Source: an uncultured Bdellovibrionales bacterium
GTDB lineage: Bacteria > Patescibacteriota > Minisyncoccia > Moranbacterales > UBA1568
Assembly (NCBI GenBank): GCA_964398485.1
Contig: CAYNMD010000003.1
Coordinates: forward strand, 1,334 to 65,333
DNA length: 64,000 bases
Direction: 5' to 3'
Made by a program: the position numbers and the translations under genes. How positions within the stretch are numbered: the stretch's first letter is position 1; each line of letters opens with the position of its first letter. Below are positions 5 through 7,324 of the stretch, one piece after another. The notes under the pieces are model-generated. The model had not been told where the DNA came from. It searched no databases and was given only the letters and a program-made list of their open reading frames with translations.

Positions 5-751
5 GTGCGGGATATGGTACCTGATGGTCTCTTTCATCAACTAACTGGAACGAGATATGAATTCCAGGGTGAAAATATTTCTATTGACCCGAACAAGTAC
101 GAACTCGAAGAGAGACAAATTGGCTCTGGTTCTGAGAACAATGTCTACAAGCTTACTTCGCTTGATCCAAACCTTCCTTCACTCGTCATCAAGGTTGATC
201 GAACAGGTACCGAAGATGTCGATGTGCTCCTCGAGCGTGGTAAAGAGGTGCGTCGTGAATGGGAAACGATGAAAGAGTGGTACCAAAGTGTCCCTGGCCT
301 CGTGCCGGATGAGTTTTATTTTATTGGTCGTTCACCTATCGGCGGGAGAAATGCCCTCATTACCATCCAGGAATATTTGGGAACCAAAGATGAACTGCGG
401 GATTTTTTTCGCGATGTTTCTGCAGGACGATTGCATGAACTGCTGACGTCAGACACAGCGTTTCGTCGGGATTTCATTGCTTTTGCTCGGGTGACTATCG
501 AACATGCTGAGAAATATGATGAGATGATTGATACCATTGGCGTAAACAATTTGGTTTTGGCGGAGCGGCCAGAAGGAGCGAGACTGTTTCTTATCGATCC
601 GCATGTTATCAAGCATCCTCGGGGGACAGAGGTAGAAAATGAGCGTCAAGAACTGAGTGAGCAGCTGACTCGTCTCCGCACCATGCTCGCTGAAGCTGAA
701 GCAATAGAAGCGACTACTTCTTCTCCCGACACAGCCAGTATCTCGGCTTGA
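5..751 (+). CDS. atypical protein-kinase-like (RIO/KdoK-like fold) domain protein; 5' end may lie outside window
   Basis: Gly-rich loop-like IGSGSENNVYKL, conserved-Lys-like LVIKV, catalytic-loop-like GVNNLVL and metal-loop-like LIDPH; ORF opens at window edge (GTG at 5, in-frame ATG at 14). Confidence 0.35.
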   Translation: MRDMVPDGLFHQLTGTRYEFQGENISIDPNKYELEERQIGSGSENNVYKLTSLDPNLPSLVIKVDRTGTEDVDVLLERGKEVRREWETMKEWYQSVPGLVPDEFYFIGRSPIGGRNALITIQEYLGTKDELRDFFRDVSAGRLHELLTSDTAFRRDFIAFARVTIEHAEKYDEMIDTIGVNNLVLAERPEGARLFLIDPHVIKHPRGTEVENERQELSEQLTRLRTMLAEAEAIEATTSSPDTASISA

Positions 752-819: not shown

Positions 820-3165
820 ATGAATTTATCAGAAAGAGATATCTGCACCAAGTTTATTACTCCATCCTTGACTAAGGCTGGATGGGATTTACATACCCAG
901 ATTCGTGAAGAAGTCTCGTTTACCGCTGGGCCGATCATGATTCGCGGGAAAACAATTTCACGTGGAGAGAGGAAGCGTGCTGACTACATTCTTTATTATC
1001 GAAACAATTTCCCTATTGCTCTCATTGAGGCAAAGGACGATACCCACAGTGTGGGTGACGGGATGCAGCAGGCATTGTCCTACGCAGAAGCACTCGATAT
1101 TCCTTTCGTCTATAGTTCTAATGGTTCTGGCTTTCTCGAACATGATCGATTACAAAATACATCCAATATTGAACAAGAACTCTCTCTCGACGACTTTCCG
1201 TCTCCCACTGATTTGTATGAGCGCTATATAAAGGAAAAGGCATTCAGTGGAGAAGAAGAGAGCATTCTTGCACAAGAGTATTTTGATGATGGTTCTGGAA
1301 AAGCTCCACGGTACTATCAGATCAATGCGATCAATCGTGCAGTCGAAGCAGTAACCAAAGGGAAAGATCGAATTATGCTCGTCATGGCGACGGGTACTGG
1401 CAAGACGTATACAGCGTTTCAAATTATCTGGCGCCTATGGAAAGCGCGAAAGAAACAGCGTATTCTTTTTCTTGTGGATCGGACGGCACTCGCTCAGCAG
1501 ACACTGACAGGAGAATTTCGTCATTTCGGTAATGCTGTGACCAAAATAGATGGCCCAAGTGTTGATAAGGCCTACGAAGTATACATTGCTCTCTATCAAG
1601 GCCTCATGGGCGGCGAAGAGATGGAGAAGTTCAAACAGTTCTCACCAGACTTTTTCGATCTCGTTGTTGTCGACGAGTGTCATCGTGGCAGTGCTAAAGA
1701 CGATGGCCTCTGGCGCTCCATTCTCGAGTATTACAAAAATGCTACGCAAATTGGTCTCACGGCAACGCCCAAGGCAGCTGATGATGCCAATAACTTTGAG
1801 TATTTCGGCGAGCCAGTCTATACCTACTCTCTCAAACAGGGGATTGAAGACGGTTTTCTCGCCCCGTACAAAGTCATTCGCTATCGCTTCAACTACGATG
1901 AATGGCGACCACCGCAAGGCTTCGTGGACAGGTATGGCGAACCGGTTCCTGATGAGATCTTTACTGAGTCGATGTTCGACCGTTCTATTGTTCTTGAGGA
2001 TCGCAATCGGGCTGTAGCCAAGTGTATCGCTGATTTCATGCGCGAGATTGACCCATTCCAAAAGGTGATTGTTTTCTGTGTTGATCAGGACCACGCCGAA
2101 CGGATGCGACGCTTTCTCGTGAACGCTCTCTCTGAATTCTGTTCTGAAAACTCACGCTATGTAGTGCGGATCACTGGAGATGATGCCTTTGGCAAGATGG
2201 AGATTGAACACTTCATCAATCCAGAGTCCAAATATCCCGTCATTGCGACGACTTCCAAACTGCTCTCGACGGGTGTCGATACACAGACGGTCAAACTCGT
2301 GGTACTCGATGCCCCGATGAATTCAATGACAGAGTTCAAACAGGTTATCGGTCGCGGGACACGCATCAATGAGCAGTACGACAAATACTACTTCACCATC
2401 ATGGACTTTCGCAATGTGACCCGGCTTTTTGCGGACCCAGCCTTTGATGGCGAACCGGTCAAAGTGTATGAACAGGATACTACCGATCCGCTCCAAGCTG
2501 CCCGTGCTATCGAAGCAGAAACACAGTCCGAAGCCGAAATTGCAGAGCATCACCCAGGGGAAGAGATTCTCATCGACGGTACTGATGATAATCCGAAACC
2601 CAAGAAAATCCACATTACCGATGGCGTGACGTTTGATGTGATCCAAAAGATCGTTCAGTATATTGATCCAAAAACCGGCAAACTCATTACCACTTCGCTT
2701 GAGGACTATAGCAAGTCAACGATTCGTGGTATATACTCTTCACTTGATGACTTCCTTAATCGTTGGCAAGCAACTGAGCGCAAAGATGCTATCATCACTG
2801 AACTGCGAGAACGCGGTGTACTCTTCGATGAACTCCAGAAAACCGTGGGGCAAGACTGTGATGTCTTTGATCTTATCCTTCATATAGCTTATGGACAGAA
2901 GCCACTCACGCGGAGCGAACGGTTGAAAAAAGTCCGCGAAAGTAATTATTTTGCCAAATACCAGGGAGTAGCGAGAGAAATTATCGATCATCTTCTCGAG
3001 AAATACGCCGAGTATGGTATCGCGGCGATCGATGATGTCGGTGATCTTCAGGTGACGCCGTTTACAGAGTACGGTACGGCGCTTGAAATTCTCGAGATAT
3101 TTGGTGGTCGGGAGCAGTATATGCAGACTGTCCGAGAGATTGAGCGAGAACTCTACCACGTCTAA
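820..3165 (+). CDS. hsdR: type I restriction enzyme R subunit (HsdR)
   Basis: N-terminal MNLSERDICTKFITPSL..., Walker A MATGTGKT, DEAD-box-like VVVDECHRGS, helicase motifs; ATG start verified at 820. Confidence 0.9.
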   Translation: MNLSERDICTKFITPSLTKAGWDLHTQIREEVSFTAGPIMIRGKTISRGERKRADYILYYRNNFPIALIEAKDDTHSVGDGMQQALSYAEALDIPFVYSSNGSGFLEHDRLQNTSNIEQELSLDDFPSPTDLYERYIKEKAFSGEEESILAQEYFDDGSGKAPRYYQINAINRAVEAVTKGKDRIMLVMATGTGKTYTAFQIIWRLWKARKKQRILFLVDRTALAQQTLTGEFRHFGNAVTKIDGPSVDKAYEVYIALYQGLMGGEEMEKFKQFSPDFFDLVVVDECHRGSAKDDGLWRSILEYYKNATQIGLTATPKAADDANNFEYFGEPVYTYSLKQGIEDGFLAPYKVIRYRFNYDEWRPPQGFVDRYGEPVPDEIFTESMFDRSIVLEDRNRAVAKCIADFMREIDPFQKVIVFCVDQDHAERMRRFLVNALSEFCSENSRYVVRITGDDAFGKMEIEHFINPESKYPVIATTSKLLSTGVDTQTVKLVVLDAPMNSMTEFKQVIGRGTRINEQYDKYYFTIMDFRNVTRLFADPAFDGEPVKVYEQDTTDPLQAARAIEAETQSEAEIAEHHPGEEILIDGTDDNPKPKKIHITDGVTFDVIQKIVQYIDPKTGKLITTSLEDYSKSTIRGIYSSLDDFLNRWQATERKDAIITELRERGVLFDELQKTVGQDCDVFDLILHIAYGQKPLTRSERLKKVRESNYFAKYQGVAREIIDHLLEKYAEYGIAAIDDVGDLQVTPFTEYGTALEILEIFGGREQYMQTVREIERELYHV

Positions 3166-3168
3166 TCT

Positions 3169-4596
3169 ATGTCCGAAATTCAAAATATCATCAAAAGCAT
3201 TCAGAATATCATGCGCAAAGACGCTGGAGTGGATGGTGATGCTCAGCGCCTCTCGCAGCTCGTGTGGATGCTCTTTCTCAAGATCTATGATGATCGAGAG
3301 AAAAACCTCGAAGCGATCGACCCGAGCTACCATTCCCCGATACCTGAGGAATTTCGCTGGCGCTACTGGGCTGCCAACCCCGAAGGGATCACGGGGGATG
3401 ATCTTCGCACCTTCATCGATAAAGATCTCTTTCCGGCGCTCAAAAACCTTTCTCTCCATGGGAGCAATCAAAATGCCGCTATCGTCCGGGGAGTCTTTGC
3501 CGACTCCTATAATTACATGAAGAACGGGACGCTCATACGACAAGTGGCCAACAAAATCAATGAAGTGAATTTCAACAAAAAAGCTGATCGTCACCAGTTT
3601 GGTGATATCTATGAAAAGCTGCTCAAGGATTTGCAGAGTGCTGGCAATGCTGGTGAATTCTATACTCCACGGCCACTCACCAACTTTGTGGTAGGGATGG
3701 TTGATCCGAAACTTGGAGAGAAAATCCTTGATCCGGCTTGTGGCACGGGCGGATTTCTCATCTCCACGCTCGAGCATATCCGTGCGCACGAGGTCAAGAC
3801 ACAGGATGACGAATCTGCTCTCGAGTCATTGCTCCATGGCGTCGAGTTGAAACCACTCCCACATCTCCTTGCGACAACCAATTTTCTCTTGCACGATGTT
3901 GGCAATCCGGCGACCATCAGACGCGATGATATGCTCTCGTATCCACTCACCTCGTATGGCCCGGCTGATCGAGTCGATGTGATCGTGGCCAATCCACCCT
4001 TTGGTGGAGTGGTGGCCGATGGGACCCAGGCCAATTTCCCGAGCGACCTCCGCACCAAAGATACTGCCCTTCTCTTTCTCATCCTCTTCATCCATCTCTT
4101 GAAGCCTGGTGGCAGAGCAGGGGTGGTGCTCCCAGATGGTGTTCTCTTTGGTGACAATACTGCTGCCAAGATCAAAGAAAAGCTCCTTGCCGAATGCAAT
4201 GTCCACACGATAGTGCGGCTTCCTGCCGGGGTCTTCAATCCCTATGCGGGGGTCAATACCAATCTCATTTTTTTTGAGAAAGGCCAGCCAACCAAAGAAG
4301 TGTGGTATTACCAGATGCCGCTCCCCGAGGGACTCCGTGCCTATACCAAGACACGGCCGATTACCGATGCTGAATTTGAACCGGTCAAGAAATGGTGGAG
4401 GAAGCGAAAAGAAAATGAATTTGCGTGGAAAGTTTCTATCAATCAAATCCGCGAGCGTAATTGGTCACTCGACTTCAAGAATCCTAACGGTCAAGTAGTT
4501 GAGGAACACAAAACCCCGAAGGAGATTTTGGGAGATATTGAGGACAAGGAAAAAGAAATTTCCAAACTGTTGAATGAGATGCGGCAAGAGATATGA
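3169..4596 (+). CDS. hsdM: type I RM N6-adenine DNA methyltransferase subunit (HsdM)
   Basis: N-terminal HsdM-N region, AdoMet motif DPACGTGGFL, catalytic VANPPFGG; 3 nt after hsdR stop. Confidence 0.9.
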   Translation: MSEIQNIIKSIQNIMRKDAGVDGDAQRLSQLVWMLFLKIYDDREKNLEAIDPSYHSPIPEEFRWRYWAANPEGITGDDLRTFIDKDLFPALKNLSLHGSNQNAAIVRGVFADSYNYMKNGTLIRQVANKINEVNFNKKADRHQFGDIYEKLLKDLQSAGNAGEFYTPRPLTNFVVGMVDPKLGEKILDPACGTGGFLISTLEHIRAHEVKTQDDESALESLLHGVELKPLPHLLATTNFLLHDVGNPATIRRDDMLSYPLTSYGPADRVDVIVANPPFGGVVADGTQANFPSDLRTKDTALLFLILFIHLLKPGGRAGVVLPDGVLFGDNTAAKIKEKLLAECNVHTIVRLPAGVFNPYAGVNTNLIFFEKGQPTKEVWYYQMPLPEGLRAYTKTRPITDAEFEPVKKWWRKRKENEFAWKVSINQIRERNWSLDFKNPNGQVVEEHKTPKEILGDIEDKEKEISKLLNEMRQEI

Positions 4597-5351
4597 ATAA
4601 ACTTGAATTAACAAGAGAGAATTTTCGTTTGCTTGCATCAATTATTTCATCTGCTACATCTGGGACGCTCTTTACTAAATTATTGATGGACGCCGGTTGG
4701 ACACCAGAATCAACGGCTTCACAGGCGTGGCAATTAGCAAGAAAATCCAAAGAAGACTATCTCTTTGATCAATTTGTGCAAATTGCAGAGCAAGGACGTG
4801 AGGACATTGTTGAGTTTGTTGTGGAGAAAACAATCATAAAAAGTAGTGTTTACTTCAAGAAAGGAGATAAAGACTATAAGTTTCCTCGAGATACCTTTAC
4901 GGCTCTAAAGAAAAAAGTTGGTAAAAAAGAAGTTGTTTTACAAAAGAAGGACGTTAAACTTTTTAATGAGAGGAAGTTTCACCCCTCAGTAGTTTTCGCA
5001 AGCAAGAGGCTTTTTTCCGATGGATACTATTCACAAGCAATCTTTGAGGCCTGCAAACTTTTAAATAAAAGAGTACAAGAACGCTCTGGTTCATCAAAAG
5101 ATGGAAAATCTTTGATGCTGGATGTTTTCAGTGTCAATAATCCTAGACTTAAATTCTCTGATATAACAAGTCAGTCAGGAAGAGATGAACAGGAGGGCTT
5201 TATGCATATCTTTGCTGGAGTAATGCAGGGAGTTAGAAACCCAAAGGGTCACGACATTATAGATCTCAGGGATTCGAGTCGTGCCTTGGAGTATATGAGT
5301 ATTGTGAGTCTTCTTTTTAGGAAGTTGGAGGAAATAGATAATGGAAAATAG
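4593..5351 (+). CDS. HEPN/Abi_C-like (TIGR02391-like) protein embedded in hsd operon
   Basis: C-terminal FAGVMQGVRNPKGHDIIDL carries an Rx4H HEPN-type motif (RNxxxH as in Abi_C); start ATG overlaps hsdM stop (ATGA at 4593-4596). Confidence 0.5.
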   Translation: MNKLELTRENFRLLASIISSATSGTLFTKLLMDAGWTPESTASQAWQLARKSKEDYLFDQFVQIAEQGREDIVEFVVEKTIIKSSVYFKKGDKDYKFPRDTFTALKKKVGKKEVVLQKKDVKLFNERKFHPSVVFASKRLFSDGYYSQAIFEACKLLNKRVQERSGSSKDGKSLMLDVFSVNNPRLKFSDITSQSGRDEQEGFMHIFAGVMQGVRNPKGHDIIDLRDSSRALEYMSIVSLLFRKLEEIDNGK

Positions 5352-6138
5352 AACCAAGTTTTTTATTTTTAGTGACGAGTCAGGAAGCTGGCATGATCCA
5401 GCAGATATTTACGTTAGGTCATGGGTCGTAATAACAAGTGAAGAATATAACAAGCTGCTGGCCAAGGTTGATGAAATTGCTAGTTTTATCGGATCAAAAG
5501 AACTATCGTGGAATACTTTAGCAGGCAACAAGAACCTCTTTCACTCATTTGATGGGATTAGTTTTAGGATTTTTATTACGGTCTCTTGTCCAAAAGATAT
5601 TTCATGGGGTACGAAATATCGGCTGACGAAAAATTTTGAAACGAGTATATTAGGTTTTGATTTTGGTGAGCTGGATGAAGGTTTAAGGGCATACATTAAA
5701 GATAGGATTTATAAAGATATAAAGAATGCATTATTTTTAAACTTCTATGAAAGGTATCATATTGAAAATGCAAAAAAGGGGATTGAACGCGTTATCAAAC
5801 CAACTGATTATGATTTGATATATCGTATTGATCCTCCACAGATGCCCCAAGAAGGATGGAAGAATATACTACAGAAAGTTGATAACTCTTCTTCAATTAA
5901 TATAGAATTTCCAAAATCAAGCCGGACACAAGGGATACAATTTGCAGATGTGGTTGCTGGTTGTTTCCGATCCTTGCTTTTAAAGGGTAGAAAGTTTGAA
6001 GAGTCAAAAGAGTTTTTAAAAGTTATTAAAGATCGCATTATACAGAAGAATAAGGAGAACCCAAATCCAAATCTAATATTTTTTGGAGAAATGAACAACG
6101 ATATAAAGTTAAACTGTGCAGATATCTGGAAGTACTGA
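5341..6138 (+). CDS. DUF3800-family protein embedded in hsd operon
   Basis: N-terminal FIFSDESGSW (DES motif) and C-terminal IQFADVVAGC (QxAD motif) typical of DUF3800; GGAGG RBS 9 nt upstream; overlaps previous gene by 11 nt. Confidence 0.5.
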   Translation: MENRTKFFIFSDESGSWHDPADIYVRSWVVITSEEYNKLLAKVDEIASFIGSKELSWNTLAGNKNLFHSFDGISFRIFITVSCPKDISWGTKYRLTKNFETSILGFDFGELDEGLRAYIKDRIYKDIKNALFLNFYERYHIENAKKGIERVIKPTDYDLIYRIDPPQMPQEGWKNILQKVDNSSSINIEFPKSSRTQGIQFADVVAGCFRSLLLKGRKFEESKEFLKVIKDRIIQKNKENPNPNLIFFGEMNNDIKLNCADIWKY

Positions 6139-6142
6139 ATTT

Positions 6143-7324
6143 ATGAACTACCCAACAAAAAAACTTGGAGAGGTTTGTGGAGTTGTTGGTGGGGGGACGC
6201 CATCGACAAAAGTTAGTGAATATTGGGGCAACAAATACCATTGGGTAACACCGAAGGACTTGGGCCAGTTGAAGAGTGTAGAGATTTCCCAGACCAATAA
6301 ACAAATTACCGATAGTGGATTAAGGGACTCTTCGGCAAAACTGCTTCCCGCTGGATCTGTTATCCTCTCATCTCGTGCCCCTATTGGATATGTTGCAATT
6401 AATACTGTGCCAATGGCTACGAATCAAGGATGTCGCAGTTTCGTATGTGGGCCGAAAGTTTTTAATAAGTATCTGTATTACTTTTTGATCGCCTCCCATG
6501 ACTATCTTCAAACATTGGGAGGCGGCTCAACTTTTCTTGAAGTTTCCGGATCACGTCTGAAAGAGATTGAAATCCGGGTTCCGCCTATTAGGGAGCAGGG
6601 GAAGATTGTTGCGAAGATAGAACGGCAATTTGCCAAGATGGACGAGGCCGCGCGGTTGCGCGCGGAGAGTGAGGCTCTTGCCGAAAAACTCCTCCCCGCC
6701 GCCCTCCACGAAATCTTCTCCTCACACAATTGGGATTTGGTCTCTCTCAGTGATGTGGTTACGAGTTTTCAATACGGTAGTTCAAAAAAAGCCTCTGATA
6801 TTGGTGAGGTTGTGTGTGTAAGAATGGGTAACTTACAGAGCGGTGAAATCGATTGGACAAATCTGAAATATGCTCCAGATAATGAAGAATTAGAGAAATT
6901 TTTTCTACGTGATGGTGATGTATTATTTAACCGTACCAACAGTCCTGAGCTTGTGGGCAAGACCGCAATTTATCGGGGTGATAGGCCCGCCATATTTGCT
7001 GGTTATTTGATTCGTATAAACTACGTACGGGATAAAGTGCTAGGACAATATTTAAACTATTGTCTTAATTCTGATTTTGCAAAAGACTTCTGTCAGAGAG
7101 TTAAAACGGATGGAGTAAGTCAGTCTAATATTAATGCGCAGAAGCTTGCAACATTTACCTTCCCACTTCCACCGCTTACAGAACAAAAGAAGATTGTGAA
7201 AAAGTTGGATGCTCTCGCTGAAAAGGTGAAGGCCCTCCGCGAGCTGCAGGCAGCTCAAGCAGCCGATCTCAAAGCCCTCAAGCAATCCATCCTCCATCAG
7301 GCATTCAGTGGAGATGGGAAGTAG
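6143..7324 (+). CDS. hsdS: type I RM specificity subunit (HsdS)
   Basis: Two target-recognition-domain halves separated by conserved coiled-coil repeats (LPPLTEQKKIVKKLDAL...; central AKMDEAARLRAESEALAEKLL); ATG at 6143 verified, 4 nt after DUF3800 stop. Confidence 0.85.
   Translation: MNYPTKKLGEVCGVVGGGTPSTKVSEYWGNKYHWVTPKDLGQLKSVEISQTNKQITDSGLRDSSAKLLPAGSVILSSRAPIGYVAINTVPMATNQGCRSFVCGPKVFNKYLYYFLIASHDYLQTLGGGSTFLEVSGSRLKEIEIRVPPIREQGKIVAKIERQFAKMDEAARLRAESEALAEKLLPAALHEIFSSHNWDLVSLSDVVTSFQYGSSKKASDIGEVVCVRMGNLQSGEIDWTNLKYAPDNEELEKFFLRDGDVLFNRTNSPELVGKTAIYRGDRPAIFAGYLIRINYVRDKVLGQYLNYCLNSDFAKDFCQRVKTDGVSQSNINAQKLATFTFPLPPLTEQKKIVKKLDALAEKVKALRELQAAQAADLKALKQSILHQAFSGDGK

What the first reader, a model, noticed from the sequence alone, without database searches (positions are those of the whole stretch)
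3169..7324. Type I RM operon with an embedded HEPN(Abi_C)-like + DUF3800 gene pair between hsdM and hsdS
hsdR-hsdM are followed not by hsdS but by two translationally coupled genes before hsdS resumes: (i) 4593..5351, whose C-terminus carries an Rx4H motif (VRNPKGHD) in the context typical of the Abi_C/TIGR02391 HEPN family; and (ii) 5341..6138, with the DES (FIFSDESG) and QxAD (IQFADVV) motifs of DUF3800. Start/stop overlaps (ATGA; 11-nt overlap; 4-nt gap) imply co-transcription with the hsd genes. Type I hsd loci are a known landing site for abortive-infection and anticodon-nuclease modules (e.g. prrC inside an hsd locus). A HEPN RNase-type toxin partnered with a DUF3800 protein inside an intact hsd operon looks like a two-layer defence unit: restriction plus an Abi-type backup, possibly controlled by the RM complex.
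Basis: partly seen in the sequence, partly recalled or inferred. Interest (0 to 1): 0.7.

Follow-up and report, generated by a model that had tools for sequence, protein, structure and literature searches.

The report
Restriction operon carrying two independent nuclease genes
An intact Type I restriction-modification operon of an uncultured Patescibacteria (CPR) bacterium carries two extra predicted nuclease genes between its methylase and specificity genes, but each is a separate mobile passenger found alone in related operons, so this is a new example of a known habit, not a new two-gene defence system.

Summary

The "gene pair" reading does not hold. Outside this organism's own contig, no close homologue of either gene has the other beside it. 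The closest DUF3800 homologue sits in R-M-DUF3800-S. The closest Ymh homologues sit in M-...-Ymh-S. Both genes are better conserved than the hsd genes around them and have lower GC3, so they look like separately mobile cargo. The hsdM-hsdS slot in related operons also holds Fic, Bro-N, Schlafen/AlbA_2 and unknown genes.

Ymh "in operon with R-M" was catalogued in 2013. DUF3800 immediately downstream of Type I, II and III methyltransferase genes was not found described in the papers searched. A PrrC-like back-up role is plausible but untested. Interest is modest.

The parts
820..3165 (+). hsdR, Type IB (EcoAI/EcoEI family) restriction subunit, 781 aa
   Evidence: NF046051 restrict_EcoAI 1077 bits (cut-off 550) over residues 3-780; Pfam ResIII, EcoEI_R_C, HSDR_N; PADLOC REase_I. 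The DECH helicase motif and an N-terminal D...EAK nuclease motif are visible in the translation.
3169..4596 (+). hsdM, N6-adenine methyltransferase subunit, 475 aa
   Evidence: Pfam N6_Mtase 237 bits plus HsdM_N; PADLOC MTase_I 669 bits. The NPPF motif is visible in the translation.
4593..5351 (+). Ymh/TIGR02391-family HEPN protein, 252 aa: a lineage-specific helical N-terminal domain (4593..4967) followed by a C-terminal HEPN domain (about 4968..5351)
5235..5252 (+). codons for the R215-N-P-K-G-H220 (Rx4H) predicted catalytic motif of the HEPN domain
   Evidence: H220 is invariant and R215 is conserved in at least 90% of 27 homologues down to 52% identity. D198-E199-Q200 upstream is invariant.
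5341..6138 (+). DUF3800 protein, 265 aa, RNase H2-like fold, predicted nuclease
6143..7324 (+). hsdS, specificity subunit with two target-recognition domains, 393 aa from the ATG at 6143 (a GTG at 6116 is also open)
   Evidence: Pfam Methylase_S, two stretches, 140.9 bits; PADLOC Specificity_I 233.6 bits over 10-400. The homologous loci call the same ATG start.
4500..6250 (.). low-GC segment that coincides with the two cargo genes
   Evidence: GC is 0.34-0.38 here against 0.47-0.50 in the flanks. GC3 is 0.33 (ymh) and 0.31 (DUF3800) against 0.48 (hsdR), 0.56 (hsdM) and 0.42 (hsdS). The same deficit is seen in eight other hsd loci that carry one of the two genes.

Best explanation
This is an intact Type IB restriction-modification operon (hsdR-hsdM-[ymh]-[duf3800]-hsdS) in a Patescibacteria/Parcubacteria-type bacterium. 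Its hsdM-hsdS slot has picked up two unrelated, separately mobile accessory genes.

Shown: gene order and tight coupling, family membership, folds, conserved catalytic-type residues, independent distribution of the two genes, and their foreign base composition.

Inferred: all five genes are made from one transcript, so the cell produces the R2M2S restriction enzyme together with two extra nucleases. The Ymh protein is a latent HEPN endoribonuclease. Its clade-specific N-terminal domain, or contact with the Hsd complex, keeps it off until infection (for example, inhibition of restriction by a phage) releases it to cut cellular and phage RNA and stop growth. This is the PrrC/EcoprrI logic. The DUF3800 protein is a metal-dependent RNase H-like nuclease that acts as a second, separate effector on nucleic acid. 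Its habitual place directly after DNA methyltransferase genes of Type I, II and III systems ties it to RM systems in general, not to the HEPN gene. Their side-by-side position here is stacking of two cargo genes in a hotspot, not an obligate two-component system.
For: Architecture and junctions. Families. Folds. Conserved residues.

Independence of the two genes: P0123 (71% DUF3800) sits in R-M-DUF3800-S. P0125 and P0126 sit in R-(Fic)-M-DUF3800-x-S. L044 is R(58%)-M(65%)-DUF3800(63%) with no Ymh. P0002 and P0006 (73% and 70% Ymh) sit in M-...-Ymh-S-R. P0033 sits in M-Ymh-S-R.

Mobility: cargo is more conserved than its frame. L005 has Ymh at 69% but HsdM at 35% and HsdR at 34%. L033 has DUF3800 at 65% but HsdM at 33% and HsdR at 37%. 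The GC3 deficit of the cargo is seen in every locus examined.

RM linkage of DUF3800: of 40 immediate upstream neighbours, 14 are DNA methyltransferases (8 N6_N4 including 3 Type III mod, 5 N6_Mtase, 1 C5) and about 5 more are other RM or nuclease components.

Literature: Ymh listed as 'in operon with R-M' (PMC3710099). PrrC as an RM guardian (PMC12707154). tgvAB and rloF embedded in Type I operons (PMC11411939). DUF3800 as an RNase H-like domain in type VII retrons and Cas12a2/a3 loci (PMC7736814, PMC10910872, PMC13594972). PD-lambda-3, whose B subunit model matches this HEPN domain, is an experimentally used Abi system (PMC13190303).
Against: No experiment or expression data exist for this locus. 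RNase or nuclease activity, toxicity, the trigger, and any contact with Hsd proteins are all inferred. Unlike PrrC, the Ymh protein has no ATPase domain, so the PrrC analogy covers only location and HEPN chemistry. Confirmed HEPN genes of other families (AbiV twice, DUF4145 once, PF05168 once) lie immediately next to DUF3800 genes elsewhere, and the 11-nt overlap here implies translational coupling, so some functional cooperation cannot be excluded. The locus survey covers only what pattern-based scans returned (24 + 62 loci plus 9 look-ups) and is not exhaustive.
Confidence: 0.6

Rival explanations
1. One reading: Ymh-HEPN and DUF3800 form one two-component module (toxin plus partner, or sensor plus effector) that works as a unit, backing up restriction and possibly controlled by the RM complex.
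For: The 11-nt overlap with a Shine-Dalgarno sequence inside the upstream gene implies translational coupling. Close DUF3800 homologues in L032 and L034 are immediately followed by HEPN_AbiV genes, and distant ones by DUF4145 and PF05168 HEPN genes. PD-lambda-3 is a validated Abi pair of a nuclease (PD-(D/E)XK) and a protein whose model matches this HEPN domain.
Against: Each gene occurs without the other in its closest relatives, inside otherwise equivalent operons. Only this organism's own contigs have both. Ymh more often travels with two small ~131 and ~136-aa genes. The DUF3800 protein does not match PD-Lambda-3_A. The unannotated DUF3800 neighbours that carry RNxxxH motifs could not be shown to be HEPN.
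Confidence: 0.12
2. The two genes are selfish hitch-hikers (addiction-type or neutral mobile cassettes) that exploit the stable, hard-to-lose RM operon for their own maintenance and give the host no defence benefit.
For: Consistently foreign GC3. Cargo is more conserved than its frame. The same slot holds very varied unrelated cargo. Some Ymh homologues sit next to serine recombinases with no RM genes.
Against: Catalytic-type residues are conserved across homologues down to 52% (Ymh) and 31% (DUF3800) identity, which indicates selection on activity. Relatives of both domains are components of validated or strongly predicted defence systems. No transposase, integrase or flanking repeats lie at the insert.
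Confidence: 0.15
3. The cargo proteins modulate the RM system itself, for example by processing the polycistronic hsd mRNA to set the M:S:R ratio, or by restriction alleviation after DNA damage, and are not independent antiviral effectors.
For: Their position between hsdM and hsdS, and DUF3800's strong preference for the position directly after methyltransferase genes in three RM types, are compatible with a role tied to methylase expression or function.
Against: Most Type I operons, including close relatives, work without either gene. Both families also occur away from any RM genes. No precedent was found in the papers searched.
Confidence: 0.08
4. The DUF3800 gene is simply the organism's housekeeping RNase H2-type enzyme that happens to lie in the operon.
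For: Best structural matches are RNase HII, H2A and HIII.
Against: Only 13-16% identity to those enzymes. No RNase HII family HMM hit. Patchy distribution, foreign GC3, and defence or RM neighbourhoods in nearly all loci.
Confidence: 0.03

Closest known systems
Ymh (PF09509/TIGR02391) HEPN genes in R-M operons, catalogued by Anantharaman et al. 2013 (PMC3710099)
   Same: Same Pfam family, same Rx4H motif, and the same habit of lying inside R-M operons. That paper also proposed the multilayer defence idea.
   Different: The 2013 examples emphasised paraMORC, AbiJ-NTD and AbiTii fusions. This protein has a different ~125-aa N-terminal domain restricted to a narrow, mostly Patescibacteria clade.
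PrrC anticodon nuclease in the EcoprrI Type IC locus
   Same: A HEPN-type RNase gene embedded in and co-expressed with a Type I hsd operon. It is the model for an RM guardian activated when restriction is inhibited.
   Different: PrrC has an N-terminal ABC-type ATPase domain and sits in a Type IC system. Here there is no NTPase domain, the HEPN family is different, the system is Type IB, and no trigger is known.
Embedded cargo in Type I operons: C. jejuni rlo genes and V. cholerae tgvAB
   Same: Extra defence genes inserted between hsd genes and transcribed with them; variable content between strains.
   Different: Those cargos are GmrSD-like Type IV restriction enzymes, ATPases and others, not Ymh or DUF3800. 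tgvAB is a true obligate pair, whereas the two genes here are not.
PD-lambda-3 (Vassallo et al. 2022), a two-gene abortive-infection system
   Same: Its B-subunit model matches the HEPN domain here (E=7e-17). It pairs that protein with a nuclease and acts by abortive infection.
   Different: The match covers only the C-terminal HEPN half. The partner there is a PD-(D/E)XK nuclease, not DUF3800. It is not embedded in an RM operon.
DUF3800 effectors of type VII retrons and TPR-DUF3800 genes next to Cas12a2/Cas12a3
   Same: Same Pfam domain with DE and QxxD motifs and a predicted RNase H(2)-like fold. Recurrent attachment to different immune systems.
   Different: Here the protein is stand-alone (no TPR or RT fusion), sits in an RM operon, and lacks the DUF3800-associated RNA motifs. 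The RM association was not found described in the papers searched.

Membership tests
Ymh / TIGR02391 (PF09509), HEPN superfamily | Family HMM score above the curated cut-off | tested here: met
   PF09509 111.8 bits (cut-off 25); TIGR02391 83.7 bits (cut-off 39.45).
Ymh / TIGR02391 (PF09509), HEPN superfamily | Conserved Rx4-6H motif | tested here: met
   R215-NPKG-H220. H220 is invariant and R215 at least 90% conserved in 27 homologues.
Ymh / TIGR02391 (PF09509), HEPN superfamily | All-alpha HEPN helical bundle fold | tested here: met
Ymh / TIGR02391 (PF09509), HEPN superfamily | Endoribonuclease activity | not testable with these tools
   Needs biochemistry.
   No PF14355 hit at E<=0.1. The only Pfam hit is PF09509.
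DUF3800 (PF12686) | Family HMM score above the curated cut-off | tested here: met
   36.9 bits (cut-off 21), profile positions 1-147 of 149. The match is modest, so this is a divergent subfamily.
DUF3800 (PF12686) | N-terminal DE motif and C-terminal QxxD motif | tested here: met
   D12-E13 and Q200-F-A-D203; D12, E13 and D203 are invariant in 29 homologues.
DUF3800 (PF12686) | RNase H-like fold | tested here: met
Canonical RNase H2 (RnhB) family | Sequence-family membership and the DEDD active site in equivalent positions | tested here: inconclusive
Type IB restriction-modification system | HsdR of the EcoAI/EcoEI family, plus HsdM with N6_Mtase and HsdM_N, plus HsdS with two target-recognition domains, all full length | tested here: met
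   NF046051 1077 bits (cut-off 550); PF08463 EcoEI_R_C; N6_Mtase 237 bits; Methylase_S in two stretches. Restriction and methylation activity are not testable here.
PrrC/RloC-type anticodon nuclease | N-terminal ABC/NTPase domain fused to the HEPN nuclease | tested here: not met
   No NTPase family hit. The N-terminal 125 aa are a small helical domain unique to this clade.
PD-lambda-3 system | Both subunits present (A, a PD-(D/E)XK nuclease, and B) | tested here: not met
   Only the B model matches, and only over the HEPN half (E=7e-17). No protein in the operon matches PD-Lambda-3_A.
Obligate two-gene module (Ymh + DUF3800) | Conserved co-occurrence and adjacency across homologues | tested here: not met
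   The two genes are adjacent only in this organism's own contigs. About 16 other close DUF3800 loci and about 10 other close Ymh loci lack the partner.

The most novel reading that the evidence does not exclude
DUF3800 RNase H-like nucleases may be a widespread, so far unrecognised class of accessory effectors attached to restriction-modification systems. They are inserted directly after the methyltransferase gene in Type I, II and III operons and repeatedly sit beside HEPN RNases of different families (Ymh here, AbiV, DUF4145). In this operon the HEPN and DUF3800 proteins would then cooperate as a nucleic-acid-sensing back-up that fires when restriction fails.
Probability: 0.2. Interest if true: 0.6.

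Novelty: new member of a known kind. Interest (0 to 1): 0.35.

Why it matters
Patescibacteria have tiny genomes, and restriction-modification is among the most widespread prokaryotic defences, so the accessory genes inside their RM operons may add meaningfully to their immunity. This locus shows that the hsdM-hsdS junction of their Type IB operons behaves like a miniature defence island that collects single-gene nuclease cassettes. It also gives a clean natural series for testing what each cargo gene adds: R-M-S, R-M-DUF3800-S, M-Ymh-S-R and R-M-Ymh-DUF3800-S. The link between DUF3800 and methyltransferase genes, if confirmed by a full census, would give this uncharacterised RNase H-like domain a third immune context besides retrons and Cas12. 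It does not reveal a new principle.

Tried and rejected
- **Abi_C assignment:** no HMM hit.
- **Conserved Ymh+DUF3800 pair:** rejected by the locus surveys.
- **Solved-structure relatives by sequence:** none for either protein.
- **Foldseek of the Ymh model against the PDB:** no significant match. The afdb50 library was unavailable, so the N-terminal domain stays unassigned. A phmmer search of that domain over 1.84 billion representatives found only its own small family.
- **DUF3800-associated RNA motifs or any Rfam family:** none in the window.
- **tRNA genes as integration targets:** none.
- **Flanking direct or inverted repeats at the insert:** only short chance-level matches.
- **Internal promoters or terminators:** fewer consensus sites than in shuffled sequence.
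- **Viral contigs:** no Ymh relatives and only two distant DUF3800 relatives.
- **Plasmids:** no DUF3800 relatives. TIGR02391 HEPN domains on plasmids are stand-alone and not in hsd operons.
- **Are the unannotated DUF3800/Ymh neighbours with RNxxxH motifs HEPN proteins?** hhalign probabilities were below 1%, with no Pfam hit and only weak matches (E about 1e-4 to 1e-3) to two uncharacterised PADLOC candidate families, so this is unproven.
- **One bioRxiv paper that mentions DUF3800** could not be read.


Full report

Yes. Five co-directional ORFs lie at 820..3165, 3169..4596, 4593..5351, 5341..6138 and 6143 (or 6116)..7324. Direct reading of the junctions gives:
- a 3-nt gap between hsdR and hsdM;
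- an ATGA stop/start overlap between hsdM and the 252-aa ORF;
- an 11-nt overlap between the 252-aa and 265-aa ORFs, with a GGAGG ribosome-binding site 9 nt before the second ATG;
- a 4-nt gap before the hsdS ATG.

Consensus promoter and terminator scans find fewer sites than in shuffled sequence, so nothing argues against a single transcript. The same DNA is 100% identical in contigs assembled from four different samples, which excludes an assembly chimera. GC falls to 0.34-0.38 exactly over the two inserted genes, against about 0.47-0.50 on either side.

**2. What are the five genes?**

- **HsdR** matches the EcoAI/FtnUII Type IB model end to end (1077 bits, cut-off 550) and carries the EcoEI_R_C domain.
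- **HsdM** has HsdM_N and N6_Mtase.
- **HsdS** has two Methylase_S target-recognition domains. The DECH and NPPF motifs are visible in the translations. The RM system looks intact.
- **The 252-aa protein** matches Pfam Hypoth_Ymh (PF09509, E=2.4e-32, residues 127-245) and TIGR02391. In PADLOC it matches an Argonaute-associated HEPN model and PD-Lambda-3_B. It does not match Abi_C.
- **The 265-aa protein** matches DUF3800 (PF12686, 36.9 bits against a cut-off of 21) over nearly the whole profile.

**3. Structures and residues**

With 27- and 29-sequence alignments, AlphaFold2 gives pLDDT 82 for the Ymh protein and pLDDT 91 with pTM 0.90 for the DUF3800 protein.

In the Ymh family, H220 and D198-E199-Q200 are invariant and R215 is at least 90% conserved. 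In the DUF3800 family, D12, E13, E137, H140, D164, Q167 and D203 are invariant down to 31% identity. Both therefore look like active enzymes, although activity is inferred.

The first 125 residues of the Ymh protein form a helical domain with a short β-hairpin. A search of 1.84 billion representatives found only five proteins with this domain, all of the same family. It is a clade-specific domain of unknown role. Foldseek against the PDB gave nothing useful.

**4. Are the two genes a pair?**

No. I collected:
- 24 genome loci with Ymh relatives;
- 62 metagenome loci with DUF3800 relatives;
- the contigs that encode the closest homologues of each.

I annotated these with profiles built from the window's proteins and with Pfam. 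The two genes are adjacent only in this organism's own contigs.

| Protein | Homologue (identity) or locus | Arrangement |
|---|---|---|
| DUF3800 | P0123 (71%) | R-M-DUF3800-S, the window's layout minus ymh |
| DUF3800 | P0125 (69%) | HTH-R-M-DUF3800-x290-S |
| DUF3800 | P0126 (68%) | R-Fic-M-DUF3800-x347-S |
| DUF3800 | L044 | R(58%)-M(65%)-DUF3800(63%) |
| Ymh | P0002 (73%) | HTH-M-x131-x136-Ymh-S-R |
| Ymh | P0006 (70%) | Fic-M-BroN-...-x131-x137-Ymh-S-Fic-R |
| Ymh | P0033 (69%) | M-Ymh-S-R |
| Ymh | P0014 (69%) | after a Type IIG-like methylase |
| Ymh | P0027 (69%) | next to a serine recombinase, no RM genes |

Counting independent loci with close homologues:
- **DUF3800:** about 11 of 17 are in Type I operons, 3 are next to other DNA methyltransferases, and 3 are in helicase/nuclease loci.
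- **Ymh:** 5 of about 11 are in the hsdM-hsdS slot, 3 are in a Type III plus GmrSD island, 1 follows a Type IIG-like enzyme, and 2 have no visible RM.

**5. Evidence for separate mobility**

The cargo is much better conserved than its frame. Ymh is 69% identical between the window and L005, while HsdM and HsdR are 35% and 34%. DUF3800 is 65% identical between the window and L033, while HsdM and HsdR are 33% and 37%.

In the window and in eight other hsd loci, the cargo gene has clearly lower GC3 than the neighbouring hsd genes. In the window the values are 0.33 and 0.31 against 0.48, 0.56 and 0.42. GC3 is not set by amino-acid content, so this is the signature of genes that move between hosts.

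No repeats, integrase or transposase mark the insert. Homologous recombination through the conserved hsdM and hsdS ends is the likely route, but that is an inference.

**6. Wider pattern for DUF3800**

Of 40 co-directional immediate upstream neighbours:
- 8 are N6_N4 methylases (3 with the Type III mod domain);
- 5 are Type I HsdM;
- 1 is a C5 methylase;
- about 5 more are other restriction components.

RM genes make up only a small fraction of a typical genome (general knowledge; no background rate was computed here), so this looks like a strong association, and I did not find it described in the papers searched.

Downstream neighbours include HsdS (3), ResIII (2) and four confirmed HEPN proteins of other families: AbiV twice, DUF4145 once and PF05168 once. 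That recurring HEPN adjacency is the one fact that keeps the cooperation hypothesis alive. Further neighbours with RNxxxH motifs could not be confirmed as HEPN.

**7. How it most likely works**

Shown: one tightly packed operon; an intact Type IB RM system; one HEPN-fold and one RNase H-fold protein with conserved catalytic-type residues; independent, mobile distribution of the two genes.

Inferred, by analogy with PrrC/EcoprrI, with the 2013 proposal for Ymh in RM operons, and with PD-lambda-3, a validated abortive-infection system whose B subunit model matches this HEPN domain: the Ymh protein is a latent RNase. It is held off by its own N-terminal domain or by the Hsd complex, and is released when infection or anti-restriction disturbs that state, which stops translation. 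No antitoxin gene or intergenic RNA is present here or in L005, which fits control by the protein's own domain or by Hsd proteins.

The DUF3800 protein is a separate metal-dependent nuclease, as in type VII retrons and Cas12a2/a3 loci. It is linked to RM systems in general. I put about 0.6 on this overall picture, and about 0.3 on the specific PrrC-like trigger.

**8. Comparison with what is known, and novelty**

Extra defence genes inside Type I operons are well known: prrC, the Campylobacter rlo genes, and tgvAB. Ymh "in operon with R-M" is in the 2013 HEPN catalogue. This locus is therefore a new member of a known kind.

The new elements are modest:
- a DUF3800 nuclease as RM cargo;
- a clade-specific N-terminal domain on the Ymh protein;
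- the view of the hsdM-hsdS junction in Patescibacteria as a cargo hotspot, which also holds Fic, Bro-N, Schlafen/AlbA_2, a ClpP-like gene and several unknowns.

**Verdict.** Interest is 0.35.

Noticed in passing
L007:7195-8747; L106:2906-4471; L109:4184-5750: A conserved three-gene cassette. Two small proteins (~131 and ~136 aa, 54-73% identical between loci, no Pfam, PADLOC or PHROG hit, winged-helix-like C-termini) immediately precede the Ymh gene in three different contexts, one of them without any hsd genes. They are absent from the window. They may be the usual regulators or antitoxins of this Ymh clade.
   Followed up: partly
L008:1593-2387; L024:258-803; L099:4994-5866; L102:2442-3575 and 5801-6844; L109:2568-3859: The hsdM-hsdS slot (and the hsdR-hsdM slot) of related Type IB operons carries very varied cargo: Schlafen/AlbA_2, a ClpP-like protein, Fic, Bro-N, and unknown 157-, 290- and 347-aa proteins. 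It behaves like a small defence island inside the operon.
   Followed up: partly
L032:7094-8436; L034:7352-9383; L035:7316-9693: Close DUF3800 homologues in helicase/nuclease loci are followed by Pfam HEPN_AbiV genes (L032, L034). In L034 and L035 they are preceded by 218/231-aa proteins that are 80% identical to each other and carry an RNRVVH motif, and in L035 DUF3800 is followed by a 300-aa protein with RNRIMH. None of these three has a Pfam or confident family hit, so they are possible undescribed HEPN-like families.
   Followed up: partly
L074-L080 (e.g. L076:2768-8868): Distant DUF3800 homologues (29-31% identity) lie between a large methyltransferase-sized gene (about 640-790 aa; Pfam N6_N4_Mtase and TypeIII_RM_meth hits occur among the pooled upstream neighbours, but were not assigned to individual loci) and a ResIII-type helicase, sometimes with an extra ~250-aa gene. 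This looks like the same embedding habit in Type III-like RM operons.
   Followed up: partly
window 5879..5908: A sigma-70-like site (TTGATA, 18 nt, TAGAAT; 10 of 12 matches) inside the 3' part of the DUF3800 gene, about 235 nt upstream of hsdS. It could give hsdS its own promoter, but the AT-rich insert makes chance matches likely, and the region has fewer sites than shuffled sequence.
   Followed up: no
L001:1-3020 (just upstream of the window's 5' end); window 5..751: About 5 kb upstream of hsdR the same contig encodes a DUF8128 protein and a TrwB/TraG-like coupling protein, hinting at a conjugative element nearby. The ORF that ends at window 751 (309 aa in full) has no family hit.
   Followed up: no
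window 5341..6138, residues 167-184: A weak, sub-threshold NCBIfam hit (LIC12628_fam, 22.9 bits, cut-off 65) over an 18-residue stretch around the PPQ motif of the DUF3800 protein. It is probably a shared short motif and not homology.
   Followed up: no
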